From Laetmonice hystrix (lineage: Eukaryota): DNA of 64,000 nucleotides. The translations under genes and the position numbers were made by a program. Where the stretch lies: assembly GCA_965235115.1 (NCBI GenBank), contig OZ249436.1, positions 1,552,001 to 1,616,000 on the forward strand. Direction: 5' to 3'. Of this stretch, positions 26,550 through 63,580 are shown piece by piece. The notes under the pieces are model-generated. The model did no database searches and was not told where the DNA came from. It was given only the letters and a program-made list of their open reading frames with translations. The number at the start of each line of letters is the position of its first letter. Position 1 is the stretch's first letter.

Positions 26550-28296
26550 TCAAGGGATTCGTCGGCTGGGTCGTTCTTCTCCGAAACGTCGGCTGGGTCG
26601 TTCTTCTCCATCTCCACCGAAACGTCGGCTGGGTCGCTGTTCTCCATCTCCACCGAAACGTCGGCTGGGTCGTTCTTCTCCATCTCCACCGAAACGTCGG
26701 CTGGGTCGTTCTTCTCCATCTCCACCGAAACGTCGGCTGGGTCGTTCTTCTCCATCTCCACCGAAACGTTGGCTGGGTCGTTCTTCTCCATCTCCACCGA
26801 AACGTCGGCTGTGTCGTTCTTCCCCATCTCCACCGAAACGTCGGCTGGGTCGCTGTTCTCCATCTTCACCGAAACGTCGGCTGGGTCGCTGTTCTCCATC
26901 TCCACCGAAACGTCGGCTGGGTCGTTCTTCTCCATCTTCACCGAAACGTCGGCTGGGTCGCTGTTCTCCATCTCCACCGAAACGTCGGCTGGGTCGCTGT
27001 TCTCCATCTCCACCGAAACGTCGGCTGGGTCGCTGTTCTCCATCTCCACCGAAACGTCGGCTGGGTCGCTGTTCTCCATCTCCACCGAAACGTCGGCTGG
27101 GTCGCTGTTCTCCATCTCCACCGAAACGTCCACTGCGAGGTCGCTCCTGTCCATCACCACGTCGGCAAGGACCCCTGGCAGGCAGGATCTCTTTGAGGTC
27201 ACACCCCTGGTTGTTATCCTCTTCATCATCCAGGATAGAATCCTCATCGTCTTCCTCATCCTCGCCCTCATCTTCCTCATCTTGCTCGTCACCGAATGGG
27301 TCAATAGACTCCTCGTCCTCCTCCAAGGATGATCCAAACCATGGGTTCTCGGGAACACAGATGGACAGCTCGATGTCAGACCTCGAACGTCGCAGCTGTA
27401 CACAGCTCAGGTCTCCCGGGCAGGCTTTCTCTACAAGTGTTTCTCCAGTCGTTCTGTTCACCTTCTTGCATACCTGAGGAGGAAAGAGATGACGATTAAA
27501 ATGAATGCATGTACTTGACATAGTAAGTATAATGACGTGTTGACCTGATGCTAAGTACATGTATATAAAAGGCTAGAATTTTCTGACTTGTTAACTGCAT
27601 GGGAATAGGCTTAAATCCGTGCATTGGGTTAATCCTGAGACTAATTCTGTTCTTGAATACAGCTAAAATAATATCAGTTTCTTAAAAATAATCCGGGGGA
27701 GCCCCCCCCCCCCAAAAAAAACCCCTAAAAATGTGCCCCTCTTCCTGAACCCCTGGATGCTCCACTGATATCGGTAAGTTCGCTTTCAGTGTTATCTCAT
27801 TGTTATAGTCAGTTGATAAAATTAGCGCCATGTGGCACTAGCTTTGTTTTATAATGTCTCATGAGCAACAATGAATTAAGCGTCTAACGAAGCTCGAAAT
27901 ACGCCCTACCTGTGGCTTGCAGACGTGGATTTCTAGATCCCCAAAGGGGCCTTTCTTGTTGATTGGAGAGCAGGTCAGGTTCCGTGGACAGGTTGTTTCA
28001 CATAGCACAACGTCTGAGGTAATGTTCTTCACAAGGCATCCCATGGGTCGGTGATGATGGCGGTGACCGGGCCGAGGGAACCTGTGCCGGTCAGACTCCC
28101 CGGCGTCCTGCTCATCACCCCGGCTAGGCCGGCCACCCTGTGAGGGCGATCCCCGGCGGCCTCCCAGCCGACCTCCCGCCGGCGGTGGCCCCGGCCGCCT
28201 CCCCGGCCTCCCTCCCCGGGGTCGGCCCGAGACGTCGTGGATGGCCAGTATCACCAGCACTGCCGCTATCAAACAAACTACCAAAGTCGACTTCAT
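26550..28296 (-). CDS. secreted Gly/Arg-rich, RGD-containing, Cys-module, acidic/RF-repeat protein, copy 1 (436 aa, 15 full 12-aa repeats)
   Basis: coding exons 28296-27910 and 27473-26550 (CAG|GTAGGG, CCTCAG|GTA, phase 0); non-coding exon 1 donor GTAAGT at 28600; signal peptide MKSTLVVCLIAAVLVILAIHDVSG; AATAAA at ~26036-26041. Confidence 0.88.
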
Positions 28297-28600
28297 CTTC
28301 TGGAATACAAACAGTGGCACATAGTACATTTGTAATAATATTATCTGACTTACAGTGTCCCCATACAAACAGTGGTAGGCCTACATCATCTGAGTTACGA
28401 CGTGACCCATTAACCCATACAAACAGTGGCACATCTGAGTTGGTATCCCCTGGCCTTGGTTCGTTTAGACGTGAACTAAAAGTTAAGGCCTTTAGGCCTA
28501 CATGTCAGGGGGGAAGACGGTCAACGTATCACTGAAGCCTATAGAATGTAACTAATGTTAAGTAAATGAAATAATAAATGAAAAGCTCTATTTAACTTAC

Positions 28601-28795
28601 CGAAAGTGTTCCTCAGCTGGCCTGAAGCAAGTTATGATCGATACTGCGGCAGTAGCAGAGTTGTACTTGCTGACGTCTATTCGTGCTGAGCTCAGTTCTC
28701 GTTCACTTGGACTGTTTGATGTCAACTGATGGTGGTGTGGCCGTTATATTCCCTGAGAGTCTAGAAATCGTGATCACCTCCGTGACGTCACTGCC
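28601..28795 (-). promoter_or_regulatory. promoter and non-coding first exon of the secreted gene (CRE TGACGTCA 28783-28790, TATA-like ~28744-28749)
   Basis: CRE and TATA are conserved in the 5 copies whose promoter is in the window; the exon lacks ATG and ends in CG|GTAAGT. Confidence 0.65.
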
Positions 28796-30296: not shown

Positions 30297-30312
30297 GGCC
30301 CTGACAAGGGCC
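30297..30312 (-). terminator. histone-type stem-loop, copy 2 (downstream element altered to CAATAGA)
   Basis: GGCCCTTGTCAGGGCC. Confidence 0.7.
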
Positions 30313-30342
30313 GTCTAGGTTTGTGTGAGAGAATGGTTCTCT

Positions 30343-30663
30343 TCACTGGTGCTGGTCGTCAAGGCCCTCGTACACCTCGGCCCAGTCGACCTGAAACTCC
30401 TCCATGAGGCGGTCCTGCATATCGTCCAGGAGGTCGGCACGGCTGTTGGCGTACTCCCAGAACATGTTCCTCACTCCCTCCAGGGTGACCAGACGGAGAC
30501 GGTTGTGGTAGCGGAAGGAGCGGCGGTTCTTGCGGACGGCACGGTCGTATTTGGTATTCATTTCCTTGATACGGTTGTTGAGGAGAATGAGTTGCTGACA
30601 GGCCACCTTGAACTTGCGGTCCATCTGGCGCATCTCTGAGATCAGTTTTTCAACCGTAGCCAT
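30343..30663 (-). CDS. intronless 106-aa coiled-coil protein, copy 2 (type A, MATVEK)
   Basis: paralog of copy 1; TATATAA at ~30743-30749. Confidence 0.85.
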   Translation of the reverse strand: MATVEKLISEMRQMDRKFKVACQQLILLNNRIKEMNTKYDRAVRKNRRSFRYHNRLRLVTLEGVRNMFWEYANSRADLLDDMQDRLMEEFQVDWAEVYEGLDDQHQ

Positions 30664-30888: not shown

Positions 30889-31049
30889 CTCTGTCTCTCT
30901 CTCTATCTCTGTCTATCCCTGTGTCTCTCTGTCTCTTTCTCCCTCTTTCTCGCTCTCTGTCTGTCTCTCTCTCTCCCCCTCTCTCTCATTCCCTCTGTCT
31001 CACTCTCTCCCCTCTCTCTTTCTCTCATTCCCTCTCTCTCATTCTCTCC

Positions 31050-32132: not shown

Positions 32133-32148
32133 GGCCCTGACAAGGGCC
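32133..32148 (-). terminator. histone-type stem-loop, copy 3
   Basis: GGCCCTTGTCAGGGCC + CAAGAGA. Confidence 0.75.
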
Positions 32149-32178
32149 GTGTAGGTTTGTGTGAGAGAATGGTTCTCT

Positions 32179-32499
32179 TCACTGGTGCTGGTCGTCATTG
32201 CCCTCGCACACCTCCTCCCAGTCGACCTGAAACTCCTCCATGAGGCGGTCCTGCATATCGTCCAGGAGGTCGGCACGGCTGTTGGCGTACTCCCAGAACA
32301 TGTTCCTCACCCCCTCCAGGGTGACCAGACGGAGCCGGTTGTGGTAGCGGAAGGAGCGGCGGTTCTTGCGGACGGCACGGTCGTATTTGGTATTCATTTC
32401 CTTGATACGATTGTTGAGGAGAATGAGTTGTTGACAGGCCACCTGGAACTTGCGGTCCATCTGGCGCATCTCTGAGATGAGTTTTTCAACCGTAGCCAT
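32179..32499 (-). CDS. intronless 106-aa coiled-coil protein, copy 3 (type A; extra copy in unit 1)
   Basis: intact paralogous ORF with TATA and stem-loop. Confidence 0.85.
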   Translation of the reverse strand: MATVEKLISEMRQMDRKFQVACQQLILLNNRIKEMNTKYDRAVRKNRRSFRYHNRLRLVTLEGVRNMFWEYANSRADLLDDMQDRLMEEFQVDWEEVCEGNDDQHQ

Positions 32500-32729: not shown

Positions 32730-32781
<52 letters not shown>

Positions 32782-34278: not shown

Positions 34279-34294
34279 GGCCCTGACAAGGGCC
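34279..34294 (-). terminator. histone-type stem-loop, copy 4
   Basis: GGCCCTTGTCAGGGCC + TAAGAGA. Confidence 0.75.
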
Positions 34295-34324
34295 GTGTAG
34301 GTTTGTGTGAGAGAATGGTTCTCT

Positions 34325-34645
34325 TCACTGGTGCTGGTCGTCATTGCCCTCGCACACCTCGGCCCAGTCGATCTGAAACTCCTCCATGAGACGGTCCTGC
34401 ATATCGTCCAGGAGGTCGGCACGGCTGTTGGCGTACTCCCAGAACATGTTCCTCACTCCCTTCAGGGTGACCAGACGGAGGCGGTTGTGGTAGCGGAAGG
34501 AGCGGCGGTTCTTGCGGACGGCACGTTCGTGTTTGGTCTTCATTTCCTTGATACGTTTGTTGAGGAGATTGATTTGCTGACAGGCCACCTGGAACTTGCG
34601 GTCCATCTGTCGCATCTCAGAGATGAGTTTATCAACTGGAGCCAT
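34325..34645 (-). CDS. intronless 106-aa coiled-coil protein, copy 4 (type B)
   Basis: intact paralogous ORF. Confidence 0.85.
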   Translation of the reverse strand: MAPVDKLISEMRQMDRKFQVACQQINLLNKRIKEMKTKHERAVRKNRRSFRYHNRLRLVTLKGVRNMFWEYANSRADLLDDMQDRLMEEFQIDWAEVCEGNDDQHQ

Positions 34646-36294
34646 GACTGTAGTAAAATATTTTGAGAAAATGATTGCACGCTGGACGTTGAACAAAGTA
34701 TGTTTCCAAGTAATCCCAGTATCGGTTTTATAACGCGTTGGGAAGAGTGAGTGTGGAGGTGAGTGTTGATGGTAAGAGGCGGTTATTTGTGAGGTGTGAT
34801 AACGGGTGCTTACTCTGACCAAATCTCTCAGCTTTGACACCTGACAAAGTCCTGAGAGAAATAAGTTCATTGTTTTATATTATAACGGATTTCATAGGCG
34901 TCCCAGGGGAGCGGAGTGGGCGAGGGTGCGAACGCCCCCCCCCCCCACCCCCACCCGGCCAACGGTGCCCCGAAAATGTTCAAGATTCATTGGTGCAAAA
35001 GGTATCAAAACGGAGCCTGGTAGTTCTGTCCTGACCAGGTGGCACCTGGAGTCGAATTTGATCTATCCTTTGGAAAACATGGGAAGGCCTTTGGCCTCAT
35101 AGGCCTAAATCCTGAAGGAATCTGACCTATAGTTGCTTTGTTATAATATATCTATGTGATATAGCTTTTCTTAAATATTATCATTGAATAGGTTGAATAT
35201 GACACGGACACTGTTAATTTTCTTTGTTAGTGTATAATAGCTTACGCCCCTGCATGGCTCTAGATGTGTCGGGAAGAGTTCTTCATGCTCGTTATTGGGA
35301 TGTACGGAATTTGGATCCCCGCATCCACAATTAGACCCAGAAATCTTGTGGGCCCTACCGCCCTCCAGATCACTTGATGTGTGATAACTGTTGGGTAGGT
35401 GGCGAGTAAAATATAGTTGGTCGGTTCAGGATTTTTCTTCTTGGACGAGCCCTGGCTATATGCCTGAAAGGGGCAAATCTAGGAATGTCTGGAGAACTGA
35501 GAGGGTCGCTAACCATGCATTAATCCAAGCCATCAAAAAAATAAATCTACACTTCAGCTAAATGAAGACGTTTATTTCATTTCATTAAGAGTCACATTCT
35601 TGTAGTTGAGCGTCACGTTGATACAAGACAATGAGATCAATGCATGCATAAAACTACAGTAGTCGACAACACTATGCATGCGGCCAGCGCATACTGGATA
35701 ACGTAGTTGACATTATATAAACGAAGCAGATAACTTTTTTATAGTTATCCCTGAGTGTTTGACACTTGCTATGTCAAGGAAACGAGAGATGTGATATCAA
35801 CTTTTATAACAATAAATACACGTACTAGAACATAAGTCCTATTTTCATTGGATTTCTGTTTTAATTTTCCTTAATAGCTATACCCACAGGTCTCCTGCCA
35901 GCTCCATGATTTGTGCGTGATGATGAAGTGAGATTAGTAACACATTCTCCGCCAGGGAGGAAGTTTTTCCATCTCTCATGTCTGAGAAACCATCACCGAG
36001 AGATCGAGTTTCTTGATCTCGAGTTGTGACTACCTGACCGTCCTTCAACGTGGTTCTCTCCTGTTCCCATTCTGAAGGGATCATTCAAGGGATTCGTCGG
36101 CTGGGTCGTTCTCCTCCGAAACGTCGGCTGGTTCGTTCTTCTCCATCTTCACCGAAACGTCGGCTGGGTCGTTCTTCTCCATCTCCACCGAAACGTCGAC
36201 TGGGTCGTTCTTCTCCATCTCCCCCGAAACGTCGGCTGGGTCGCTGTTCTCCATCTCCTCCGAAACGTCGGCTGGATCCCTGTTCTCCATCTTC

Positions 36295-37502
36295 TTATAA
36301 ACGTCGGCTGGGTCGCTGTTCTCCATCCCCACCGAAACGTCCCCGGCGAGGTCGCTCCTGTCCATCGCCACGTCGGCAAGGACCCCTGGCAGGCAGGATC
36401 TCTTCGAGGTCACACCCCTGGTTGTCATCCTCTTCATCATCCAGGATAGACTCCTCATCATCTTCCTCATCCTCGCCCTCATCTTCCTCATCTTCCTCAT
36501 CTTGCTCGTCACCGAATGGGTCAATAGACTCCTCGTCCTCCTCCGAGGATGATCCAAACCATGGGTTCTCGGGAACACAGATGGACAGCTCGATGTCAGA
36601 CCTCGAACGTCGCAGCTGTACACAGCTCAGGTCTCCCGGACAGGCTTTCTCTACAAGTGTTTCTCCAGTCGTTCTGTTCACCTTCTTGCATACCTGAGGA
36701 GGAAAGAGATGACGATTAAAATAAATGCATACACTTGACATAGTAAGGATAATGACGTGTTGACCTGATGCTAAGTACATGTATATAAAAGGCTAGAATA
36801 TTCTGACTTTCTGGGAACTGCATGGGAATCTATAGGCTTAAATCCGTGGATTGGGTTAATCCTGAGACTAATTCTGTTCTTGCATAAGGCTAAAATATAA
36901 TTTCCTGAAAAATAATGCGGGGGCAGAACCCCTAAAAATGTGCCCTGCTTCCCGAACCCCTGATCCTCCACTGATATCGGTAAGTTCGCTTTCAGTGTTA
37001 TCTCATTGTTATAGTCAGTTGATAAAATTAGCGCCATGTGGTACTAGCTTTGTTTTATAATGTCTCATGAGCAACAATGAATTAAGCGTCTAACGAAGCT
37101 CGAAATACGCCCTACCTGTGGCTTGCAGACGTGGATTTCTAGATCCCCAAAGGGGCCCTTCTTGTTGATTGGAGAGCAGGTCAGGTTCCGTGGACAGGTT
37201 GTTTCACATAGCACAACGTCTGAGGTAATGTTCTTCACAAGGCATCCCATGGGTCGGTGATGATGGCGGTGACCGGGCCGAGGGAACCTGTGCCGGTCAG
37301 ACTCCCCGGCGTCCTGCTCATCACCCCGGCTAGGCCGGACAACTTGTGAGGGCGGTCCCCGGCGACCTCCCAGCCGACCTCCCGCCGGCGGGGGCCCCGG
37401 CCGCCTCCCCGGCCTCCCTCCCCGGGGTCGGCCCGAGACGTCGTGGATGGCCAGTATCACCAGCACCGCCGCTATCAAACAAACTACCAAAGTCGACTTC
37501 AT
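36295..37502 (-). CDS. secreted repeat protein, copy 2, truncated by a premature TAA (261 aa; ancestral stop at 36085-36087)
   Basis: exons 37502-37116 and 36693-36295; TTA TAA in place of TTC GAA after the first repeat; could be a pseudogene or a short variant. Confidence 0.75.
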
Positions 37503-39482
37503 CTTCTGAAATACAAACAGTTACAGTGAAACATACATTTGTAATAATATTATCTGACGTACGGTGTCCCCATACAAACAGTGGTACATGAGTTATACAG
37601 TGTGACCCATTAACCCATACAAACATTGGCACATCTCAGTTACGGTATCCCCTGGCCTTGGTTCGTTTCGACGTGAACTAAAAGTTAAGGCCTTTAGGCC
37701 TACATGTCAGGGGAAAAGACGGCCAAAGTATCACTCAAGCCTATAAAATGTAACTAATGTTAAGTAAATGAAATAATAAATGAAAAGCTCTATTTAACTT
37801 ACCGAAAGTTTTCCTCAGCTGGCTTGAAGCAAGTTATGATCGATACTGTGGCAGTAGCAGAGTTGTACTTGCTGACGTCTATTCGTGCTGAGCTCAGTTC
37901 TCGTTCACTTGGACTGTTTGATGTCAACTGATGGTGGTGTGGCCGTTATATACCCTGAGAGTCTAGAAATCGTGATCACCTTTGTGACGTCACTGCCTGC
38001 GAGGGGTTTGTTTGAGGCCACAGATCTGCTGACTGCATGACACACGCGTGGAGGAGCAGTCAACCGTGACGTCTGGAGTATGTACACACCTAGGTTTGCT
38101 GCATCTAAATGCTGGGTTTAATACTATTTTTAGATCTACCCCCTGTCACGACGATATATGATCCATGATTCATTGAAGCGATCAATACAGGGCCTGCTGT
38201 TTTTACTGTCCTCATACCATTCACACAGCTATTTCTGGAGGTTCCATGACGGTCCAAATGATGTTTAATATGTTAGAGAAAATGTGTAACGGATCGTACA
38301 CAATGTTTGCGGACTGGCTCACTGACGTGTGGCGGGCAGTGTACCTACGTTACTCACGTTATTTTAATTATGTGCATTGAACGTCATTAAATTATCTTCA
38401 AGATTATTCCATGTGCCTTACAGCAAATCGGCCATTGCCTTAATTGTATTGAAGGTGTACAGAGAAGGTAGGTTTCTGGAAGGGCCCTATAATCACCCCA
38501 CCCCTAGAAATCAAAGACAGTTCAGACCAGTCAGACAAGGGAAGGGTGGCATGGAGCAGCCAGTTGTATGCCATACTGTTATACAGGCGAGGGGTTTGTT
38601 TAAGGTCACAGATCTGCTGACTACGTCAGACACGCGTGGAGGGGCAGTCAACCGTGACGTCTGGAGTATGTGTACACCTAGGTTTGCTGCAGCCTAATGC
38701 TTGGTTCAATCCTATTTTTAGATCTACCCCTGTCACGACGACATGGTCCATTGAGGCTATCAATACACGTCAGGACCTACGACTTTATTTTTACTTTCAT
38801 TATACATGTATTATTCATGGAGCTATTTCTGGAGGTTCCATGACGTCGGGCTTAACAAGATGTTTAATGTTAGCAAAAATGTGTAAAGAATCGTCCGCAA
38901 TATTGTACAGAAAAGGTAAGGTTCTGAAAGGGCCCTATAATCACCCCACCCCTAGAAATCAAAGACAGTTCAGACCAGTCAGACAAGGGAAGGGTGGAAT
39001 GGAGCGGCCAGTTGTATGTCATACTGTTATACACAGACAAAATCGATCCTACCAATCCTAAGACAAGTGGACAATACCGGAATTACCGGGTGGCTTTTCA
39101 CTGCTACCACTCTGGATTGACCCAATAAGTATCGAATCCTTGGAGAAAAACAAATCAAAGTTGTTTGGAAAAAGGAGGTATTTAGGTTGGCTTTCAATGA
39201 TTTTGTTACCTTTTTAGGCACGTTTTGAGCAAGTTTCAAGGAGTGCTGTATGTGGTGCTGTCGGAGATGTGACTGCTGTGGCCACAGGTCTACATTTATT
39301 ACTGTGTCTCCTTTTCTCACCGAAAGTACACAACATAGCTTCTCTATACGCTGGTTGCAAAGACTAATTGATAGGGGGACGTAAGAAAAGATATGAGTCA
39401 TGGCAGGAGGGGTCAAATATATTACTCTACGGTTTAAGGATACAGAGACACAACAAGTATCGAATCTCTTGAGACAGAGTGT

Positions 39483-39498
39483 GGCCCTGACAAGGGCC
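39483..39498 (-). terminator. histone-type stem-loop, copy 5
   Basis: GGCCCTTGTCAGGGCC + CAAGAGA. Confidence 0.72.
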
Positions 39499-39528
39499 GC
39501 GTAGGTTTGTGTGAGATAATGGTTCTCT

Positions 39529-39777
39529 TCACTGGTGCTGGTCGTCATCGCCCTCGTACACCTCGGCCCAGTCGACCTGAAACTCCTCCATGAGGCGGTC
39601 CTGCATATCGTCCAGGAGGTCTCTCAGGAAGGAGCGGCGGTTCTTGCGGACGGCACGGTCGTATTTGGTCTTCATTTCCTTGATACGATTGTTGAGGAGA
39701 ATGAGTTGCTGACAGGCCACCTTGAACTTGCGGTCCATCTGGCGCATCTCTGAGATGAGTTTTTCAACCGTAGCCAT
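39529..39777 (-). CDS. coiled-coil protein, copy 5 (type A) with an in-frame net 24-aa deletion (82 aa); possible pseudogene
   Basis: RYHNRLRLVTLEGVRNMFWEYANSRA is replaced by LR; promoter and stem-loop are intact. Confidence 0.7.
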   Translation of the reverse strand: MATVEKLISEMRQMDRKFKVACQQLILLNNRIKEMKTKYDRAVRKNRRSFLRDLLDDMQDRLMEEFQVDWAEVYEGDDDQHQ

Positions 39778-40163
39778 GACTGTAGTAAGATATGCTGGGG
39801 AATGGTTGCACGCTGAAGGCTGAACGAAGTATGTTTCCAAGTAGTCCTAGTACCGGTTATATATGGTGGGAAAGAGTGAGTGTGGAGGTGAGTGTTGATG
39901 GCAAGAGGAGGTTATTTGTGAGGTGTGATAACGGGTGCTCACTCTGACCTAGTCGCTCAGCTTTGACACCTGACAAAGGTGTCAGTCCTTGATCTTGTCC
40001 GCCTCTGTCTCTCTCTCTATCTCTGTCTATCCCTGTGTCTCTCTGTCTCTTTCTCTCTCTTTCTCGCTCTCTGTCTGTCTCTCTCTCTCCCCCTCTCTCT
40101 CATTCCCTCTGTCTCACTCTCTCCCCTCTCTCTTTCTCTCATTCCCTCTCTCTCATTCTCTCC

Positions 40164-40223
<60 letters not shown>

Positions 40224-41232: not shown

Positions 41233-41248
41233 GGCCCTGACAAGGGCC
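41233..41248 (-). terminator. histone-type stem-loop, copy 6
   Basis: GGCCCTTGTCAGGGCC + CAAGAGA. Confidence 0.75.
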
Positions 41249-41278
41249 GTGTAGGTTTGTGTGAGAGAATGGTTCTCT

Positions 41279-41599
41279 TCACTGGTGCTGGTCGACATGG
41301 CCCTCGTACACCTCGGCCCAATCGATCTGAAACTCCTCCATGAGGCGGTCCTGCATATCGTCCAGGAGGTCGGCACGGCTGTTGGCATACTCCCAGAACA
41401 TGTTCCTCACTCCCTCCAGGGTGACCAGACGGAGCCGGTTGTGGTAGCGGAAGGAGCGGCGGTTCTTGCGGACGGCACGTTCGTGTTTGGTCTTCATTTC
41501 CTTGATACGTTTGTTGAGGAGATTGATTTGCTGACAGGCCACCTGGAACTTGCGGTCCATCTGGCGCATCTCAGAGATAAGTTTATCAACTGGAGCCAT
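41279..41599 (-). CDS. intronless 106-aa coiled-coil protein, copy 6 (type B)
   Basis: intact paralogous ORF. Confidence 0.85.
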   Translation of the reverse strand: MAPVDKLISEMRQMDRKFQVACQQINLLNKRIKEMKTKHERAVRKNRRSFRYHNRLRLVTLEGVRNMFWEYANSRADLLDDMQDRLMEEFQIDWAEVYEGHVDQHQ

Positions 41600-45975: not shown

Positions 45976-45991
45976 GGCCCTGACAAGGGCC
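45976..45991 (-). terminator. histone-type stem-loop, copy 7
   Basis: GGCCCTTGTCAGGGCC + CAAGAGA. Confidence 0.75.
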
Positions 45992-46021
45992 GTCTAGGTT
46001 TGTGTGGGAGAATGGTTCTCG

Positions 46022-47667: not shown

Positions 47668-47683
47668 GGCCCTGACAAGGGCC
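47668..47683 (-). terminator. histone-type stem-loop, copy 8
   Basis: GGCCCTTGTCAGGGCC + CAAGAGA. Confidence 0.75.
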
Positions 47684-47713
47684 GTGTAGGTTTGTGTGAG
47701 AGAATGGTTCTGT

Positions 47714-48034
47714 TCACTGGTGCTGGTCGTCATCGCCCTCGTACACCTCGGCCCAGTCGATCTGAAACTCCTCCATGAGACGGTCCTGCATATCGTCCAG
47801 GAGGTCTGCACGGCTGTTGGCGTACTCCCAGAACATGTTCCTCACTCCCTCCAGGGTGACCAGACGGAGACGGTTGTGGTAGCGGAAGGAGCGGCGGTTC
47901 TTGCGGACGGCACGTTCGTGTTTGGTCTTCATTTCCTTGATACGTTTGTTGAGGAGATTGATTTGCTGACAGGCCACCTGGAACTTGCGGTCCATCTGGC
48001 GGATCTCTGAGATGAGTTTGTCAACTGGAGCCAT
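47714..48034 (-). CDS. intronless 106-aa coiled-coil protein, copy 8 (type B)
   Basis: intact paralogous ORF. Confidence 0.85.
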   Translation of the reverse strand: MAPVDKLISEIRQMDRKFQVACQQINLLNKRIKEMKTKHERAVRKNRRSFRYHNRLRLVTLEGVRNMFWEYANSRADLLDDMQDRLMEEFQIDWAEVYEGDDDQHQ

Positions 48035-49334: not shown

Positions 49335-50709
49335 TCAAGGGATTCGTCGGCTGGCTCGTTCTCCTCCGAAACGTCGGCTGGGTCGTTCTTCTCCATCTCC
49401 TCCGAAACGTCGGCTGGGTCGTTCTTCTCCATCTCCACCGAAACGTCGGCTGGGTCGTTCTTCTCCATCTCCACCGAAACGTCGGCTGGGTCGCTGTTCT
49501 CCATCTCCCCCGAAACGTCGGCTGGGTCGTTCTTCTCCATCTCCACCGAAACGTCCACTGCGAGGTCGCTCCTGTCCATCGCCACGTCGGCAAGGACCCC
49601 TGGCAGGCAGGATCTCTTCGAGGTCACACCCCTGGTTGTCATCCTCTTCATCATCCAGGATAGAATCCTCATCATCTTCCTCATCCTCGCCCTCATCTTC
49701 CTCATCTTGCTCGTCACCGAATGGGTCAGTAGACTCCTCGTCCTCCTCCGAGGATGATCCAAACCATGGGTTCTCGGGAACACAGATGGACAGCTCGATG
49801 TCAGACCTCGAACGTCGCAGCTGTACACAGCTCAGGTCTCCCGGACAGGCTTTCTCTACAAGTGTTTCTCCAGTCGTTCTGTTCACCTTCTTGCATACCT
49901 GAGGAGGAAAGAGATGACGATTAAAATGAATGCATGTACTTGGCACAGGATAATGTATAATGACGTGTTTACCTAATGCTAAGTACATGTATATAAAAGG
50001 CTAGAATATTCTGACTCTCTGGCAACTGCATGGGAATAGGCTTAAATCCGTGGATTGGGTTAATCCTGAGACTAATTCTGTTCTTGCATAAGGCTAAAAT
50101 ATAATTTCCTGAAAAATAATGTGGGGTGGGCAGAACCCCTAAAATGTGCCTCTCTTCCCGAACCCCTGGATCCTCCACTGATATCGGTAAGTTCGCTTTC
50201 AGTGTTATCTCATTGTTATAGTCAGTTGATAAAATTAGCGCCATGGGGCACTAGGTTTGTTTTATAATGTCTCATGAGCAACAATGAATTAAGCGTCTAA
50301 CGAAGCTGGAAATACGCCCTACCTGTGGCTTGCAGACGTGGATTTCTAGATCTCCAAAGGGGCCCTTCTTGTTGATTGGAGAGCAGGTCAGGTTCCGTGG
50401 ACAGGTTGTTTCACATAGCACAACGTCTGAGGTAATGTTCTTCACAAGGCACCCCATGGGTCGGTGATGATGGCGGTGACCGGCCCGAGGGAACCTGTGC
50501 CGGTCAGACTCCCCGGCGTCCTGCTCATCACCCCGGCTAGGCCGGCCACCCTGTGAGGGCGATCCCCGGCGACCTCCCAGCCGGCCTCCCGCCGGCGGTG
50601 GCCCCGGCCGCCTCCCCGGCCTCCCTCCCCGGGGTCGGCCCGAGACGTCGTAGATGGCCAGTATCACCAGCACCGCCGCTATCAAACAAACTACCAACGT
50701 CAACTTCAT
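49335..50709 (-). CDS. secreted repeat protein, copy 4 (316 aa, 5 repeats)
   Basis: exons 50709-50323 and 49898-49335. Confidence 0.88.
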
Positions 50710-52235
50710 CTTCTGGAAACCAAACAGTGGCACTTAGTACATTTGTAATAATATTATCTGACGTACAAACAGTGGTAGGCCTACATAATTACGACGTGAC
50801 CCATTAACCCATAAAAACATTGGCACATCTGTGTTCCGGTATCCCCTGGCCTTGGTTCGTTTAGACGTGAACTAAAAGTTAAGGCCTAAGTTAGGCCTAC
50901 ATGTCAGGGGGAAAGACGGTCAACGTATCACTGAAGCCTATAGAATGTAACTAATGTTAAGTAAATGAAATGATAAATGAAAAGCTCTATTTAACTTACC
51001 GAAAGTGTTCCTCAGCTGGCCTGAAGCAAGTTATGATCGGTACTGTGGCAGTAGCAGAGTTGTACTTGCTGACGTCTATTCGTGCTGAGCTCAGTTCTCG
51101 TTCACTTGGACTGTTTGATGTCAACTGATGGTGGTGTGGCCGTTATATTCCCTGAGAGTCTAGAAATCGTGATCACCTCCGTGACGTCACTGGCTGCGAG
51201 GGGTTTGTTTGAGGCCACAGATCTGCTGACGGCATGACACACGCGTGGAGGGGCAGTCGACCGTGACGTCTGGAGTATGTACACACCTAGGTTTGCTGCA
51301 TCTAAATGCTGGGTTTAATACTATTTTTAGATCTACCCCCTGTCACGACGATGTATGATCCATGATTCCTTGAAGCGATCAATACAGGGCCTGCTGTTTT
51401 TACTATCCTCATACCATTCACAGAGCTATTTCTGGAGGTTCCATGACGTTCCAAATGATGTTTCATATGTTAGGGGAAATGTGTAACGAATCGTACACAA
51501 TGTTCGCGGACTGCCTCACTGACGTGTGGCGGGGAGTGTACCTACGTTACTCACGTTATTTTAATTATGTACATTGAACGTCATTAAATTATCTTCAAGA
51601 TTATTCCATGTGCCTTACAGCAAATCGGTCATTGCCTTAATTGTATTGAAGGTGTACAGAGAAGGTAGGTTTCTGGAAGGGCCCTATAATCACCCCACCC
51701 CTAGAAATCAAAGACAGTTCAGACCAGTCAGACAAGAGAATGGTGGAATGGAGCAGCCAGTTGTATGCCATACTGTTCCCAGACAAAATCGATCCTAACA
51801 ATCATTGTCAAGACAAGTGGACAATACCTGAATTACCCGGCGGCTGCTCAGTGCTACCACTCTGGATTGACCCAACAATTAGTATCGAATCCTTGGAGAA
51901 AAACAAATGAAAGTTGTTTGGAAAAAGTAGGTATTTAGGTTGGGTTTAGATGATTTTGTTACCTTTTTAGGCCAGTTTTGAGCAAGTTTCAAGGAGCGCT
52001 GTATGTGGTGCTGTCGGAGATGTGACTGATGTGGCCACAGTTCTGCATTTATTACTGTGTCTCCTTTTCTCACCGAAAGTACACAACATAGCTTCTCTAT
52101 ACGCTGGTTGCAAAGACTAATTGATAGGGGGACGTAAGAAAAGATATGAGTCATGGCAGGAGGGGTCAAATATATTACTCTACGGTTTAAGGATACAGAG
52201 ACACAACAAGTATCGAATCTCTTGGGACAGAGTGT

Positions 52236-52251
52236 GGCCCTGACAAGGGCC
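52236..52251 (-). terminator. histone-type stem-loop, copy 9
   Basis: GGCCCTTGTCAGGGCC + CAAGAGA. Confidence 0.75.
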
Positions 52252-52281
52252 GTGTAGGTTTGTGTGAGAGAATGGTTCTCT

Positions 52282-52602
52282 TCACTGGTGCTGGTAGTCA
52301 TGGCCCTCGTACACCTCGGCCCAGTCGACCTGAAACTCCTCCATGAGGCGGTCCTGCATATCGTCCAGGAGGTCGGCACGGCTGTTGGCGTACTCCCAGA
52401 ACATGTTCCTCACCCCCTCCAGGGTGACCAGACGGAGCCGGTTGTGGTAGCGGAAGGAGCGGCGGTTCTTGCGGACGGCACGGTCGTATTTGGTCTTCAT
52501 TTCCTTGATACGATTGTTAAGGAGAATGAGTTGTTGACAGGCCACCTTGAACTTGCGGTCCATCTGGCGCATCTCAGAGATGAGTTTTTCAACCGTAGCC
52601 AT
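52282..52602 (-). CDS. intronless 106-aa coiled-coil protein, copy 9 (type A)
   Basis: intact paralogous ORF. Confidence 0.85.
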   Translation of the reverse strand: MATVEKLISEMRQMDRKFKVACQQLILLNNRIKEMKTKYDRAVRKNRRSFRYHNRLRLVTLEGVRNMFWEYANSRADLLDDMQDRLMEEFQVDWAEVYEGHDYQHQ

Positions 52603-54199: not shown

Positions 54200-54215
54200 G
54201 GCCCTGAGAAGGGCC
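54200..54215 (-). terminator. histone-type stem-loop, copy 10 (loop variant TCTC)
   Basis: GGCCCT-TCTC-AGGGCC + CAAGAGA. Confidence 0.75.
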
Positions 54216-54245
54216 GTGTAGGTTTGTGTGAGAGAATGGTTCTCT

Positions 54246-54566
54246 TCACTGGTGCTGGTCGTCCTCATCCTCGCACACCTCCTCCCAGTCGACCTGAAAC
54301 TCCTCCATGAGGCGGTCCTGCATATCGTCTAGGAGGTCAGCACGGCTGTTGGCGTACTCCCAGAACATGTTCCTCACTCCCTCCAGGGTGACCAGACGGA
54401 GACGGTTGTGGTAGCGGAAGGAGCGGCGGTTCTTGCGGACGGCACGGTCGTGTTTGGTCCTCGTGTCCCTGATACGGTTGTTGAGGAGATTGATTTGCTG
54501 ACAGGCCACCTGGAACTTGCGGTCCATCTGGCGCATCTCAGAGATGAGTTTATCAACTGGAGCCAT
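54246..54566 (-). CDS. intronless 106-aa coiled-coil protein, copy 10 (divergent/mosaic: RIRDTRTKHDR)
   Basis: intact ORF; B-type TATA region with an A-type 5' leader. Confidence 0.85.
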   Translation of the reverse strand: MAPVDKLISEMRQMDRKFQVACQQINLLNNRIRDTRTKHDRAVRKNRRSFRYHNRLRLVTLEGVRNMFWEYANSRADLLDDMQDRLMEEFQVDWEEVCEDEDDQHQ

Positions 54567-55982: not shown

Positions 55983-57399
55983 TCAAGGGATTCGTCGGCT
56001 GGGTCGTTCTCCTCCGAAACGTCGGCTGGGTCGTTCTTCTCCATCTCCACCGAAACGTCGGCTGGGTCGCTGTTCTCCATCTCCACCGAAACGTCGGCTG
56101 GGTCGCTGTTCTCCATCTCCTCCGAAACGTCGGCTGGGTCGCTGTTCTCCATCTCCTCCGAAACGTCGGCTGGGTCGCTGTTCTCCATCTCCACCGAAAC
56201 GTCGGCTGGGTCGCTGTTCTCCATCTCCTCCGAAACGTCCACTGCGAGGTCGCTCCTGCCCATCGCCACGTCGGCCAGGACCCCTGGCAGGCAGGATCTC
56301 TTTGAGGTCACACTCCTGGTTGTCATCCTCTTCATCATCCAGGATAGAATCCTCATCATCTTCCTCATCCTCGCCCTCATCTTCCTCATCTTGCTCGTCA
56401 CCGAATGGGTCAATAGACTCCTCGTCCTCCTCCGAGGATGATCCAAACCATGGGTTCTCAGGAACACAGATGGACAGCTCGATGTCAGACCTCGAACGTC
56501 GCAGCTGTACACAGCTCAGGTCTCCCGGGCAGGCTTTCTCTACAAGTGTTTCTCCAGTCGTTCTGTTCACCTTCTTGCATACCTGAGGAGAAAAGAGATG
56601 ACGATTAAAATAAATGCATGTACTTGGCATAGTGAGGATAATGACGTGTTGACCTAATGCTAACTGAATGACATATACATGTATATAAAAGGCTAGAATA
56701 TTCTGACTTTCTGGCAACTTCATGGGAATAGGCGTAAATCCATGGGTTGGGTTAATCCCGAGGCTAATTCAGTTCTTGCATACGGCTAAAAGTTCCTGAA
56801 AAATAATCCGCGGGTTGGGCCCCCAGAACCCCTAAAAATGTGCCTCTCTTCCCGAACCCCTGGATCCTCCACTGATATCGGTAAGTTCGCTTTGTTCGCT
56901 CATTGTTATAGTCAGTTGATAAAATTAGCGCCATGTGGCACTAGCTTTGTTTTATAATCTCTCATGAACAACAATGAATTAAGCGTCTAACGAAGCTGGA
57001 AATACGCCCTACCTGTGGCTTGCAGACGTGGATTTCTAGATCCCCAAAGGGGCCCTTCTTGTTGATTGGAGAGCAGGTCAGATTCCGTGGACAGGTTGTT
57101 TCACATAGCACAACGTCTGAGGTAATGTTCTTCACAAGGCACCCCATGGGTCGGTGATGATGGCGGTGACCGGGCCGAGGGAACCTGTGCCGGTCAGACT
57201 CCCCGGCGTCCTGCTCATCACCCCGGCTAGGCCGGCCACCCTGTGAGGGCGATCCCCGGCGGCCTCCCAGCCGACCTCCCGCCGGCGGTGGCCCCGGCCG
57301 CCTCCCCGGCCTCCCTCCCCGGGGTCGGCCCGAGACGTCGTGGATGGTCAGTATCACCAGCACCGCCGCTATCAAACAAACTACCAACGTCGACTTCAT
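55983..57399 (-). CDS. secreted repeat protein, copy 5 (328 aa, 6 repeats)
   Basis: exons 57399-57013 and 56582-55983. Confidence 0.88.
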
Positions 57400-58779
57400 C
57401 TTCTGGAATACAAACAGTTAACAGTGAAGCATACATTTGTACAATAATATTATCTGACGTACGGTGTCCCCATACAAACAGTGGTACATGAGTTATACGG
57501 TGTAACCCATTAACCCATACAAACAGTGGCACATCTGAGTTACGCTATCCTCTGGCCTTGGTTCGTTTAGACGTGAACTAAAAGTTAAGGCCTTTAGGCC
57601 TACATGTCAGGGGGGAAGACGATCAACGTATCACTGAAGCCTATAGAATGTAATTAATGTTAAGAAAATGAAATAATAAATGAAAAGCTCTATTTAACTT
57701 ACCGAAAGTGTTCCTCAGCTGGCCTGAAGCAAGTTATGATCGATACTGCGGCAGTAGCAGAGTTGTACTTGCTGACGTCTATTCGTGCTGAGCTCAGTTC
57801 TCGTTCGCTTGGACTGTTTGATGTCAACTGATGGTGGTGTGGCCGTTATATACCCTGAGATTCTAGAAATCGTGATCACCTTTGTGACGTCAATGGTTGG
57901 AAAGGGGTTTGTTTAAGGTCACAGGTCTGCGGACGGCATGATACACCCGTCGAGGCGCAGTCAACCGTGACGTCTGGAGTATGTGTACACCTAGGTTTGA
58001 TGTATCCTAATGCTGGGTTCAATCCTATTTTTAGATCTACCCCTCTCACGACGGCATCGTCCATTGAGGCTATCAATACACGTCAGGACCTACGACATTA
58101 TTTTTACTTTCATTATATTATTCATGGAGCTATTTCTGGAGGTTCCATGACGTCAGGCTTAAAAAAATGTTTAATGTTAGCAAAAATGTGTAAAGAATCG
58201 TCTACAATATTGTACACAAAAGGTAGGGTTCTGGAAGGGTCCTATAATCACCCCACCCCTAGAAATCAAAGACAGTTCAGACCAGTCAGACAATGGATGG
58301 GTGGAATGGAGCAGCCATACTGTTCCCAGACAAAATCGATCCTAACAATCATTGTTAAGACAAGTGGACAATACCTGAATTACCCAGTGGCTTCTCAGTG
58401 CTACCACTCTGGATTGACCCAATAAATATTGAATCCTTGGAGAAGACCAAATCAAAATTCTATGGAAAAAGTAGATATTTAGGTTGGCTTCCGAGGATTT
58501 TGTTACCTTTTTAGGCAAGTTTTCAGCAAGTTTTAAGGAGCGCTGTATGTGGTTCTGTCGGAGATGTGACTGCTGTGGCCACAGTTCTGCATTTATTACT
58601 GTGTCTCCTTTTCTCACCGAAAGTACACAACATAGCTTCTCTATACGCTGGTTGCAAAGAATGTTTGATAGGGGACGTAAGAAAAGATTGGAGTCAAGGC
58701 AGAAGGGGGTCAAATATATTACTCTACGGTTTAAGGATTGAGAGACACAACAAGTGTCAAATCTCTTGAGACAGAGTGT

Positions 58780-58795
58780 GGCCCTGACAAGGGCC
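58780..58795 (-). terminator. histone-type stem-loop, copy 11
   Basis: GGCCCTTGTCAGGGCC + CAAGAGA. Confidence 0.75.
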
Positions 58796-58825
58796 GTGTA
58801 GGTTTGTGTGAGAGAATGGTTCTCT

Positions 58826-59146
58826 TCACTGGTGCTGGTCGTCATCGCCCTCGTACACCTCGGCCCAGTCGACCTGAAACTCCTCCATGAGGCGGTCCTG
58901 CATATCGTCCAGGAGGTCGGCACGGCTGTTAGCGTACTCCCAGAACATGTTCCTCACCCCCTCCAGGGTGACCAGACGGAGCCGGTTGTGGTAGCGGAAG
59001 GAGCGGCGGTTCTTGCGGACGGCACGGTCGTGTTTGGTCTTCATTTCCTTGATACGGTTGTTGAGGAGAATGAGTTGCTGACAGGCCACCTTGAACTTGC
59101 GGTCCATCTGGCGCATCTCTGAGATGAGTTTATCAACTGTAGCCAT
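58826..59146 (-). CDS. intronless 106-aa coiled-coil protein, copy 11 (type A, MATVDK)
   Basis: intact paralogous ORF. Confidence 0.85.
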   Translation of the reverse strand: MATVDKLISEMRQMDRKFKVACQQLILLNNRIKEMKTKHDRAVRKNRRSFRYHNRLRLVTLEGVRNMFWEYANSRADLLDDMQDRLMEEFQVDWAEVYEGDDDQHQ

Positions 59147-60432: not shown

Positions 60433-60448
60433 GGCCCTGACAAGGGCC
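60433..60448 (-). terminator. histone-type stem-loop, copy 12
   Basis: GGCCCTTGTCAGGGCC + CAAGAGAG. Confidence 0.75.
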
Positions 60449-60478
60449 GTGTAGGTTTGTGTGAGAGAATGGTTCTCT

Positions 60479-60799
60479 TCACTGGTGCTGGTCGTCATCG
60501 CCCTCGCACACCTCGGCCCAGTCGACCTGAAACTCCTCCATGAGGCGGTCCTGCATATCGTCCAGGAGGTCGGCACGGCTGTTGGCGTGCTCCCAGAACA
60601 TGTTCCTCACTCCCTCCAGGGTGACCAGACGGAGCCGGTTGTGGTAGCGGAAGGAGCGGCGGTTCTTGCGGACGGCACGTTCGTGTTTGGTCTTCATTTC
60701 CTTGATACGTTTGTTGAGGAGATTGATTTGCTGACAGGCCACCTGGAACTTGCGGTCCATCTGGCGCATCTCTGAGATGAGTTTATCAACTGGAGCCAT
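60479..60799 (-). CDS. intronless 106-aa coiled-coil protein, copy 12 (type B)
   Basis: intact paralogous ORF. Confidence 0.85.
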   Translation of the reverse strand: MAPVDKLISEMRQMDRKFQVACQQINLLNKRIKEMKTKHERAVRKNRRSFRYHNRLRLVTLEGVRNMFWEHANSRADLLDDMQDRLMEEFQVDWAEVCEGDDDQHQ

Positions 60800-62276
60800 G
60801 ACTGTAGTAAAATATTTTGAGGGAATGATTGCACGCTGAAGGCTGAACAAAGTATGTTTCCAAGTAATCGCAGTATCGATTTTATATCGCGTTGTGAAGA
60901 GTGAGTGTGGAGGTGAGTGTTGATGGCAAGAGGAGGTTATTTGTGAGGTGTGATAACAGGTGCTTACTCTGACCATAGAGTCTATATTGACTCAATATAG
61001 ACTCTATGCTCTCACCTAATCGCTCAGCTTTGACACCTGACAAAGGTGTCAGACGCTGTAGTGCTGTGAGAAATAAGTTCATTGTTTTATATTATAACGG
61101 ATTTCATAGGCGTCCCAGGGGAGCGGAGTGGGCGAGGGTGCGAACGCCCCCCCCCCCCACCCCCCCACCCGGCCAACGGTGCCCCTAAAATGTTCAAGAT
61201 TCATTGGTGCAAAAGGTATCAAAACGGAGCCTGGTAGGTCTGTCCTGACCAGGTGGCACCTGGAGTCACATTCGATCCACCCTTTGGAAATCCTGGGAAC
61301 GTCTCTGGACTTATAGGCCTAAATCCTAAAGGAGTCTGACCTTTAGTTGCTTTGTAATAATATATCTATGTGATATAGCTTTTCTTAAATATTAAATTTC
61401 TTGAATAGGTTGAATATGGCACGGACACTGTTAATTTTCTTTGTTAATGTATAATATCACTTGATGTGTGATAACTGTTGGGTAGGTGACGAGTAGAAAA
61501 TAGTCGGTCGGTTCAGGATGTTTCTGCTTGGACGAGCCCTAGCTATATCTATCAGGGCCAGATCTAGGAATGTCTGGAGAACTGAGAGGGGCGCTAACCG
61601 TGCATTAATCCAAGCCATCAGAACCACAAATCAACACTTCAGCTAAATGAAGACGTTTATTTCATTACATTAAGGGTCACATTCTTGTAGTTGAGCGTCA
61701 CTTTAATACAAGACAATTACTTTGGTTTGTTTGAGACATGTTTACAAACATCAGACCTACTCCCAAAACAACGTTATCGGTTTACTCACTTGGTTAACAT
61801 GTTAACATCCTTTGAACATGTTTGTATGTAGATAGGAATGCCCCTTAACATTAAGAGATCAATACATTTGTAATGCATAGAACTACAGTAGTCGACAACT
61901 GTGAATGCGACCAGCGCATACTGAATCACGGAGTTGACATTATATAAATTAAGCAGATTGCTATGTCAAGGAAACGAGAGATGTGATATCAACTTTTATA
62001 ACAATATGTACACGTACTAGACAATAAGTCCTATTTTCATTGGATTTCTGTTTTAATTTTCCTTAATAGCTATGTCTACAGGACTCCAGCCAGCTCCTTG
62101 ATTTGTGCGTGATGATGAAGTGAGATTAGTAACACATTCTCCGCCAGGGAGGAAGTTTTTCAATCTCTCATGTCTGAGAAACCATCACCGAGAGATCGAG
62201 TTTCTTGATCTCGAGTTGTGACTACCTGAGCGTCCTTCAACGTGGTTCACTCCTGTTCCCATTCTGAAGGGATCAT

Positions 62277-63580
62277 TCAAGGGATTCGTCGGCTGGGTCG
62301 TTCTTCTCCATCTCCACCGAAACGTCGGCTGGGTCGCTGTTCTCCATCTCCTCCGAAACGTCGGCTGGGTCGTTCTTCTCCATCTCCACCGAAACGTCGG
62401 CTGGGTCGCTGTTCTCCATCTCCACCGAAACGTCCACGGCGAGGTCGCTCCTGTCCATCACCACGTCGGCAAGGACCCCTGGCAGGCAGGATCTCTTTGA
62501 GGTCACACCCCTGGTTGTCATCCTCTTCATCATCCAGGATAGAATCCTCATCATCTTCCTCATCCTCGCCCTCATCCTCGCCCTCATCTTCCTCATCTTG
62601 CTCGTCACCGAATGGGTCAATAGACTCCTCGTCCTCCTCCGAGGATGATCCAAACAATGGGTTCTCGGGAACACAGATGGACAGCTCGATGTCAGACCTC
62701 GAACGTCGCAGCTGTACACAGCTCAGGTCTCCTGGGCAGGCTTTCTCTACAAGTGTTTCTCCAGTCGTTCTGTTCACCTTCTTGCATACCTGAGGAGGAA
62801 AGAGATGACGATTAAAATGAATGCATGTACTTGGCATAGTAAGGATAATGACGTGTTGACTAAAAGGCTAGAATATTCCGACTTTCTGGCAACTGCATGG
62901 GAATAGGCTTAAATCCGTGGATTGGGTTAATCCTGAGACTAATTCTGTTCTTGCATACGGCTAAAATAACATTTCCTGAAAAATAATGCGGGGGGGGGGG
63001 GCAGAATCCCTAAAAATGTGCCCTGCTTCCCGAACCCCTGATCCGCCACTGATATCGGTAAGTTCGCTTTCAGTGTTATCTCATTGTTATAGTCAGTTGA
63101 TAAAATTAGCGCCATGGGGCACTAGCTTTGTTTTATAATGTCTCATGAGCAACAATGAATTAAGCGTCTAACGAAGCTCGAAATACGCCCTACCTGTGGC
63201 TTGCAGACGTGGATTTCTAGATCTCCAAAGGGACCCTTCTTGTTGATTGGAGAGCAGGTCAGGTTCCGTGGACAGGTTGTTTCACATAGCACAACGTCTG
63301 AGGTAATGTTCTTCACAAGGCACCCCATGGGTCGGTGATGATGGCGGTGACCGGGCCGAGGGAACCTGTGCCGGTCAGACTCCCCGGCGTCCTGCTCATC
63401 ACCCCGGCTAGGCCGGCCACCCTGTGAGGGCGATCCCTGGCGGCCTCCCAGCCGGCCTCCCGCCGGCGGTGGCCCCGGCCGCCTCCCCGGCCTCCCTCCC
63501 CGGGGTCGGCCCGAGACGTCGTGGATGGCCAGTATCACCAGCACCGCCGCTATCAAACAAACTACCAACGTCGCCTTCAT
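62277..63580 (-). CDS. secreted repeat protein, copy 6 (299 aa, ~4 repeats, extra GEDE in the acidic tract)
   Basis: exons 63580-63194 and 62789-62277; exon-1 donor at ~63984-63989, promoter beyond the window. Confidence 0.88.

What the first reader, a model, noticed from the sequence alone, without database searches (positions are those of the whole stretch)
26550..63580. Six-copy secreted protein family with Transformer(185/333)-like architecture and hypervariable repeat number
Seen: signal peptide; Gly/Arg/Pro region; RGD (PSRGDEQ); His tract (HRHHHR); two Cys modules; a ~45-aa Asp/Glu tract; a second RGD (RRGDGQ); then GGDGE(E/Q)RPSRRF repeated 15, 1 (6 encoded), 4, 5, 6 and ~4 times in copies 1-6. 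Established: sea-urchin SpTransformer/185-333 immune genes are clustered, GA-microsatellite-flanked genes encoding a leader, Gly-rich RRF-G repeats, RGD and His-rich regions, but their mature proteins lack Cys and the exon layout differs. Inference: an analogous diversified extracellular effector (immune/opsonin, adhesive or biomineral matrix; charge-blocky and likely disordered or coacervating), not necessarily homologous.
Basis: partly seen in the sequence, partly recalled or inferred. Interest (0 to 1): 0.72.

Follow-up and report, generated by a model that had tools for sequence, protein, structure and literature searches.

The report
Secreted-protein array with histone-ended partner genes
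An invertebrate gene for an unnamed, highly charged secreted protein is repeated six times in a row, it only superficially resembles the sea-urchin Transformer immune genes, and each repeat also carries small non-histone genes that end in the RNA hairpin normally reserved for histone messages.

Summary
The six genes are real: signal peptide, Gly/Arg/Pro stretch, two Cys modules, a 40-44 aa acidic tract and 15, 6 (1 before a stop), 4, 5, 6 and 4 twelve-residue repeats. They are not Transformers. They have three exons, 10-11 mature Cys and C-terminal 12-aa repeats. The copies are conserved rather than diversified (Cys modules: 8 synonymous to 1 replacement change). Both RGDs are within chance, and the first is absent from the one homologue found. 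The GA tracts belong to a different gene. All 12 end in a histone-type stem-loop 30 nt after the stop; 11 of 12 have an AAGAGA element behind it. An earlier scan note prompted that check; I tested it here. Best reading: a recent mixed tandem array that raises the dose of a lineage-restricted extracellular matrix or adhesive-type protein, with repeat number changing by slippage. Function, expression and taxon are untested. The histone-ended partner genes are the more surprising part.

The parts
26550..28748 (-). Secreted gene copy 1: TATA/initiator from 28748, non-coding exon ending 28601, coding exons 28296-27910 and 27473-26550; 436 aa, 15 repeats; AATAAA at 26041
36085..37950 (-). Copy 2: coding exons 37502-37116 and 36693-36295; TAA after the first repeat gives 261 aa, five more units follow in the DNA
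43178..45063 (-). Copy 3: coding exons 44494-44108 and 43705-43178; 304 aa, 4 repeats
49335..51147 (-). Copy 4: coding exons 50709-50323 and 49898-49335; 316 aa, 5 repeats
55983..57850 (-). Copy 5: coding exons 57399-57013 and 56582-55983; 328 aa, 6 repeats; last Cys replaced by Gly
62277..64000 (-). Copy 6: coding exons 63580-63194 and 62789-62277; 299 aa, 4 repeats; first exon runs off the window, so the array may continue
27910..28044 (-). Cys module 1 of copy 1 (5 Cys; predicted four beta strands, pLDDT 85)
27336..27473 (-). Cys module 2 of copy 1 (4 Cys), 31% identical to module 1, separated from it by the intron
24753..25119 (-). Small intronless gene (106 aa, CDS 25119-24799) with histone-type stem-loop 24753-24768; left end of the array
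30297..30663 (-). Small gene (106 aa) with stem-loop 30297-30312
32133..32499 (-). Small gene (106 aa) with stem-loop 32133-32148; third copy in this unit
34279..34645 (-). Small gene (106 aa) with stem-loop 34279-34294
39483..39777 (-). Small gene with an in-frame internal deletion (82 aa); stem-loop 39483-39498
41233..41599 (-). Small gene (106 aa) with stem-loop 41233-41248
45976..46342 (-). Small gene (106 aa) with stem-loop 45976-45991
47668..48034 (-). Small gene (106 aa) with stem-loop 47668-47683
52236..52602 (-). Small gene (106 aa) with stem-loop 52236-52251
54200..54566 (-). Small gene (106 aa) with stem-loop 54200-54215 (the one copy with a pyrimidine at loop position 2)
58780..59146 (-). 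Small gene (106 aa) with stem-loop 58780-58795
60433..60799 (-). Small gene (106 aa) with stem-loop 60433-60448
40003..40223 (.). CT/GA microsatellite, one example of six such tracts; each lies just upstream of a small gene, none directly flanks a secreted gene

Best explanation
The locus is a recent head-to-tail array of a 6.2-9.2 kb unit: one spliced, poly(A)-type gene for a secreted protein plus two (once three) intronless small genes with histone-type 3' ends (shown). Copies arose and exchange by unequal crossing-over or conversion, and the 36-nt coding repeat changes length by slippage (inferred). The secreted protein is a lineage-restricted extracellular matrix, mucus, cement or mineral-associated component whose amount, not whose sequence, is raised by duplication (inferred). 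Proposed working: the paired disulfide beta-sheet modules bind a partner or surface; the odd Cys count (11 in five copies, 10 in one) allows links between chains; the basic Gly/Arg/Pro head, the Asp/Glu block and the Arg/Phe/Asp/Glu tail give charge-driven condensation and cation binding; tail length tunes valency (all inferred).
For: Gene models and unit order; unit lengths 9206, 6992, 6215, 6690, 6181. Introns differ by 6.0% on average, synonymous sites by 4.3%, replacement sites by 0.95%. Cys modules 8 synonymous to 1 replacement allele, P=8e-5. 77 of 153 pairs of informative sites conflict, as expected from exchange between copies. Hydrophobic N-terminus and no later hydrophobic segment; net charge +10, +3, -26, +9 over the four regions of copy 1; three N-glycosylation sequons. 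Only 3-16% order-promoting residues outside the Cys modules. Homologue P0038 keeps signal peptide, basic head, His-rich motif, all 5 Cys of module 1 and the exon end (57% identity). Analogues: polycation/polyanion coacervation in sandcastle-worm glue (PMC9999432, passages); tandemly expanded tube-matrix genes in a tubeworm (PMC8476170, passages).
Against: No transcript, peptide or localisation data, so secretion and role are predictions. No SignalP or disorder predictor was available; hydropathy and composition were used. The Gly/Arg/Pro head shows no significant constraint among copies (4 synonymous to 5 replacement, P=0.25). Copy 2 loses most of its tail to a stop and copy 5 loses a Cys, so the tail may be dispensable. 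The mature protein has no Tyr or only one, unlike Dopa-based cements (recalled). No homologue of the second coding exon was found, so conservation of the acidic tract and repeats is unknown. The taxon was not determined.
Confidence: 0.5

Rival explanations
1. The array is driven by the small histone-ended genes (high dose in dividing cells or embryos) and the secreted gene was carried along. Compatible with the best explanation for the protein, but removes the need for selection on its copy number.
For: Small genes begin the array and outnumber the secreted gene 12 to 6. Weak purifying selection, pN/pS 0.42, P=0.004.
Against: All six secreted copies keep splice sites and Cys modules under stronger constraint than the small genes, and 5 of 6 are full length. 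DNA around the relatives could not be fetched.
Confidence: 0.3
2. A convergent Transformer-like opsonin: a disordered, RGD- and His-bearing immune protein that binds microbes, with repeat number as its diversity.
For: Signal peptide, Gly/Arg-rich repeats, RRGDG and GRFGG words shared with SpTrf in 6 of 6 copies; clustered genes in segmental duplications near GA tracts, as in SpTrf (PMC8634487, passages).
Against: No sequence diversification. RGD within chance and absent from P0038. GGRRFDG, GGPMGG, RGDGEEE and GRPFFG in 0 of 6 copies. His tract is 6 residues. GA tracts lie at the small genes.
Confidence: 0.15
3. A multi-copy peptide precursor: convertases cut at the RR in each repeat and release acidic decapeptides, and the basic Gly/Arg/Pro head plus Cys module acts as an antimicrobial or signalling piece.
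For: Almost every unit holds R-P-S-R-R; 6-19 dibasic sites per mature protein. Basic Pro/Arg head followed by a Cys domain recalls penaeidin and arasin (recalled, no call).
Against: No basic residue follows RFG, so no RFamide is predicted (sequence; rule recalled). Copy 2 would yield almost no peptide. The repeat words occur in none of the searched papers.
Confidence: 0.15
4. The paired Cys modules form an Argos- or Dickkopf/colipase-like clamp that sequesters a growth factor or receptor, with charged tails tethering it to matrix.
For: Module 1 model (pLDDT 85): best structural match Argos, Z 3.6, rmsd 2.4 over 44 residues, colipase Z 2.3; Dkk1, Argos and Dkk2 among the top four by Foldseek.
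Against: All matches are below significance (E 1.6-2.1; no Z above 5). No Pfam or PDB sequence match. Only one 45-residue module was folded, from 4 sequences.
Confidence: 0.12
5. The array or its repeat counts are an assembly artefact.
Against: Copies differ by 1-9% in introns with private indels and show a synonymous bias; six copies exceed two haplotypes.
Confidence: 0.04

Closest known systems
SpTransformer (Sp185/333) of euechinoid sea urchins
   Same: Small clustered genes in segmental duplications with GA tracts nearby; leader, Gly/Arg-rich repeats, RGD in RRGDG context, some His; largely disordered (PMC5491942, PMC8634487, PMC9623053: passages and supplement part 1 of 13).
   Different: Three exons with leader and part of the mature protein on one exon; 10-11 mature Cys in folded modules; 40-44 aa acidic block; one 12-aa C-terminal repeat instead of 25-aa N-terminal type 1 repeats and element mosaics; copies conserved; interleaved partner genes.
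Secreted repetitive, charge-blocky matrix and cement proteins of marine invertebrates (sandcastle-worm cement proteins, tubeworm tube matrix, shell-matrix low-complexity proteins)
   Same: Signal peptide, oppositely charged low-complexity blocks, lineage restriction, tandem duplication (PMC9999432 and PMC8476170, passages; shell-matrix comparison recalled).
   Different: No sequence match to any; positive, negative and mixed blocks lie in one chain around two small disulfide modules; almost no Tyr; no chitin-binding domain by Pfam.
Metazoan replication-dependent histone genes (3' stem-loop RF00032 plus downstream element; SLBP and U7 snRNP)
   Same: For the small genes: intronless, clustered, TATA, 6-bp stem with 4-nt loop, G-C base pairs, U at loop positions 1 and 3, 30 nt from the stop (25-60 is the stated range), purine-rich element behind it.
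   Different: Product is a helical hairpin with no histone match; loop position 2 is G in 11 of 12; 5' flank lacks the AAA; 24.9 bits is below the Rfam cut-off of 34.
Argos, Dickkopf CRD2 and colipase-type disulfide beta-sheet modules
   Same: Small beta-sheet module with C-P-x-x-L-x-C, repeated in tandem; top ranks in two fold searches.
   Different: Scores not significant; no sequence similarity; surrounding architecture unrelated.

Membership tests
SpTransformer (Trf) | Two exons: first encodes the leader, second the mature protein | tested here: not met
   Non-coding exon, then leader plus residues to 129, then the rest; definition
SpTransformer (Trf) | Mosaic elements with N-terminal 25-aa type 1 repeats | tested here: not met
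   One 12-aa C-terminal repeat; four Trf signature words in 0 of 6 copies, two 5-residue words shared
SpTransformer (Trf) | Order Gly-rich, central RGD, His-rich region, C-terminal region, essentially without Cys | tested here: not met
   His tract of 6 residues precedes two Cys modules; 10-11 mature Cys. In the 200 SpTrf columns seen, one row had one Cys
SpTransformer (Trf) | High sequence diversity among genes | tested here: not met
   pN 0.0095, pN/pS 0.22 over codons 1-190; alleles of other individuals not seen
SpTransformer (Trf) | [quoted passage not shown] | tested here: not met
   GA tracts lie upstream of small genes, over 1 kb and one gene away from the secreted genes; definition
SpTransformer (Trf) | Found in euechinoids only | tested here: inconclusive
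   Taxon search with a snurportin exon gave nothing; earlier unchecked notes say probable annelid
SpTransformer (Trf) | Induced in phagocytes by challenge; binds microbes | not testable with these tools
   No expression or binding data
Histone-type 3' end (small genes) | 6-bp stem, 4-nt loop, conserved G-C and loop U1/U3, 25-60 nt after the stop | tested here: met
   12 of 12 at 30 nt; 0.04 expected per window; RF00032 E 1.3e-4 but below gathering score
Histone-type 3' end (small genes) | Purine-rich downstream element pairing with U7 snRNA | tested here: inconclusive
   AAGAGA 13 nt behind the stem in 11 of 12; this animal's U7 and histone genes were not available
Histone-type 3' end (small genes) | Non-polyadenylated mRNA ending after the stem, bound by SLBP | not testable with these tools
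   No RNA data; 6 of 12 also have AATAAA 230-305 nt downstream
Histone proteins (small genes) | Histone fold or H1 winged helix | tested here: not met
   Model is two 40-residue helices plus a short helix; no histone family for 12 of 12 aligned members
Argos / Dickkopf / colipase fold | Disulfide-bonded beta-sheet subdomains with matching Cys connectivity | tested here: inconclusive
   Z 3.6, rmsd 2.4, 44 aligned for Argos; E 1.6-2.1 for Dkk

The most novel reading that the evidence does not exclude
The 12 small genes are true non-histone clients of the SLBP/U7 pathway, making non-polyadenylated, replication-timed messages for a conserved helical-hairpin protein. They alternate in one tandem unit with a spliced, polyadenylated gene for the founding member of an undescribed secreted family, so two 3'-processing regimes are co-amplified in a single array.
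Probability: 0.45. Interest if true: 0.72.

Novelty: new variant of a known kind. Interest (0 to 1): 0.45.

Why it matters
The secreted protein alone is a modest find: one more lineage-restricted, repetitive secreted family, useful as a candidate biomaterial or matrix protein and as a caution that RGD, His and RRFG words do not make a Transformer. The partner genes matter more. Replication-dependent histone mRNAs are described as the only known non-polyadenylated cellular mRNAs in animals (PMC4604434, passages). A conserved multicopy non-histone family with the same 3' signal gives a direct test of that rule by 3'-end sequencing and SLBP binding.

Tried and rejected
No whole genome was held. 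Word search with Cys module 1 among proteins of 227-2000 aa found no candidate. The module profile against 1.84 billion representatives gave 6 hits at E<=0.001; I kept 1 (P0038) and dropped 5 as repeat-inflated, multi-stretch matches such as a sushi protein. No Pfam family above cut-off for either exon or the small protein. PDB sequence search: 4 weak photosystem Fe-S hits, rejected. ESM Atlas: no usable hit for module 1; unnamed fungal clusters at 0.92-0.93 for the small protein, below the recognition mark, not used. Two JGI metagenome scans and one viral scan found no relative. Taxon search with a snurportin exon: 3 candidates, none passed. Fold searches for the small protein gave only generic helical hairpins (best Z 12.0, within the range the tool calls common). 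No clear fold match for module 1. Rfam at gathering threshold: 0 matches in the window. Repeat statistics caught only 21 of 40 units and the site list included a misaligned intron; both were redone. Paper searches for the peptides or such an array found nothing relevant; the search on non-histone stem-loop genes listed 12 papers, 2 read as passages, neither reporting an expressed non-histone case. Subscription journals and preprint supplements were not searchable and may bear on novelty. Earlier findings by sequence and nearby place: none. RFamide precursor rejected for lack of a basic site after RFG (rule recalled).
Full report
Observation. The six genes exist on the minus strand as described. 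Each has two coding exons joined by a phase-0 GT-AG intron of 402-436 nt, giving 436, 261, 304, 316, 328 and 299 aa. Five copies show a TATA and initiator-like motif and a non-coding first exon; in copy 6 that exon runs off the window, so the array may continue. All six have an AATAAA 507-618 nt after the normal stop and no histone-type hairpin. The 36-nt unit occurs 15, 6, 4, 5, 6 and 4 times; copy 2 has a stop after its first unit. The acidic tract is 40-44 aa. The two Cys modules are repeats of each other (31% identity, 4 shared Cys) and are split by the intron.

The real unit. Self-comparison shows a head-to-tail array from about 24.7 kb to the window end with units of 6.2-9.2 kb. Each unit also holds two, once three, intronless genes for a 106-aa protein: 12 copies, one with an internal in-frame deletion. 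The six CT/GA tracts lie just upstream of one of these small genes, not around the secreted gene. The neighbour on the left is an ordinary snurportin-1 gene.

Evolution of the copies. Introns differ by 6.0% on average, synonymous sites by 4.3%, replacement sites by 0.95%. The Cys modules carry 8 synonymous and 1 replacement allele (P=8e-5); the Gly/Arg/Pro head carries 4 and 5 (P=0.25, not significant); codons 1-190 carry 14 and 12 (P=0.002). Of 153 pairs among 18 informative sites, 77 conflict, which suggests exchange between copies. This is conservation with length change, not diversification.

Relatives. A profile of the two modules against 1.84 billion representatives gave 6 hits; one, P0038 from an unnamed ENA assembly, is a true homologue of the first coding exon and five are repeat-inflated. 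P0038 is 57% identical, keeps all 5 Cys of module 1, a His-rich motif and the exon end, but has RNE in place of RGD. No relative of the second coding exon was found. The small protein has 7 relatives among 7 candidates at 58-75% identity, all unnamed; in two clusters 9 of 11 and 10 of 15 members share one contig length, which I read as tandem arrays elsewhere. The taxon was not determined here; earlier unchecked notes call the animal a probable annelid.

RGD and Transformer. Shuffles give two or more RGDs in 4-30% of cases depending on the copy. The second RGD reads, in protein and DNA, as a repeat unit without its Phe-Gly codons (by inspection). From PMC5491942, PMC8634487 and PMC9623053 (passages; supplement part 1 of 13), Trf genes have two exons, element mosaics with 25-aa N-terminal repeats, flanking GA repeats and high diversity, and were found only in euechinoids. 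Five defining features were tested and not met. Two 5-residue words are shared in 6 of 6 copies; four longer signature words are in 0 of 6. I could not run an alignment against Trf itself. Membership is rejected; working like an opsonin is not excluded (0.15).

How the secreted protein most likely works. Shown: a hydrophobic N-terminus, no later membrane segment, three N-glycosylation sequons, and blocks of net charge +10, +3, -26 and +9 in copy 1; low order-promoting content outside the modules; a confident four-strand model of module 1 (pLDDT 85). Its nearest folds are Argos, Dickkopf and colipase, all below significance. Inferred: an extracellular matrix, mucus, cement or mineral-associated protein in which the modules bind or cross-link, the charged blocks condense and bind cations, and duplication raises dose (0.5). 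Analogues are sandcastle-worm glue (PMC9999432, passages) and expanded tube-matrix genes (PMC8476170, passages). Against: no expression data, almost no Tyr, a truncated copy 2, and no evidence that the tail is conserved in other species. Rivals are a passenger on the small-gene array (0.3, compatible), a peptide precursor (0.15), an Argos/Dkk-like clamp (0.12) and an artefact (0.04).

The partner genes. That prompted my check; I did not confirm that it is the same family, and a sequence look-up did not return it. Here 12 of 12 small genes have a 6-bp stem with a 4-nt loop exactly 30 nt after the stop; the pattern has 12 matches in the window, all at these genes, against 0.04 expected. The copies are paralogues, so this is one event, not twelve. 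The hairpin varies at 1 of 16 columns against 20 of 40 further downstream. AAGAGA follows 13 nt behind the stem in 11 of 12. Loop U1 and U3, the SLBP contacts (PMC4604434, passages), are kept, and the distance lies in the 25-60 nt range (10.64898/2026.10.14.759114, passages). Against: RF00032 scores 24.9 bits, below its cut-off of 34; loop position 2 is G in 11 of 12; the 5' flank lacks AAA; 6 of 12 have an AATAAA 230-305 nt downstream. The protein is a helical hairpin (pLDDT 88) with no histone or other family match and weak purifying selection (17 synonymous to 28 replacement alleles in 11 full-length copies, P=0.004).

Novelty and verdict. My searches found no paper on either protein or on such an array; subscription journals and preprint supplements were out of reach. 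The secreted family is an undescribed member of a familiar kind and merits about 0.3 alone. The mixed array with histone-ended non-histone genes is a new variant of a known design and makes a textbook rule testable, but rests on DNA alone and was anticipated by other notes of this scan. Overall interest 0.45.

Noticed in passing
window 17625-21354, minus strand: Multi-exon snurportin-1 gene (Pfam Snurportin1 and m3G cap-binding hits) with a long Arg/Gly-rich C-terminal tail and minisatellites in two introns.
   Followed up: partly
window 1755-6478: 4.7 kb satellite of a 35-36 nt unit, about 131 copies.
   Followed up: no
window 39529-39777: One small gene has a 72-nt in-frame deletion (82 aa) yet keeps its promoter and stem-loop.
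   Followed up: partly
window 24799-60799, small genes: The small genes fall loosely into two alternating sequence types with different promoters; the GA tract precedes one type only.
   Followed up: partly
P0005 and P0006 clusters (unnamed ENA contigs): Relatives of the small protein seem to form arrays of 9-10 copies in other species; whether they carry the stem-loop could not be checked.
   Followed up: partly
window 36295-36297: Premature stop in copy 2 removes five repeats and the C-terminal end while the downstream frame stays open.
   Followed up: yes
window 44526-44742: First intron of copy 3 carries local 54-58 nt duplications; copies 3 and 6 share intron features and differ by only 1.2% in the second intron.
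   Followed up: partly
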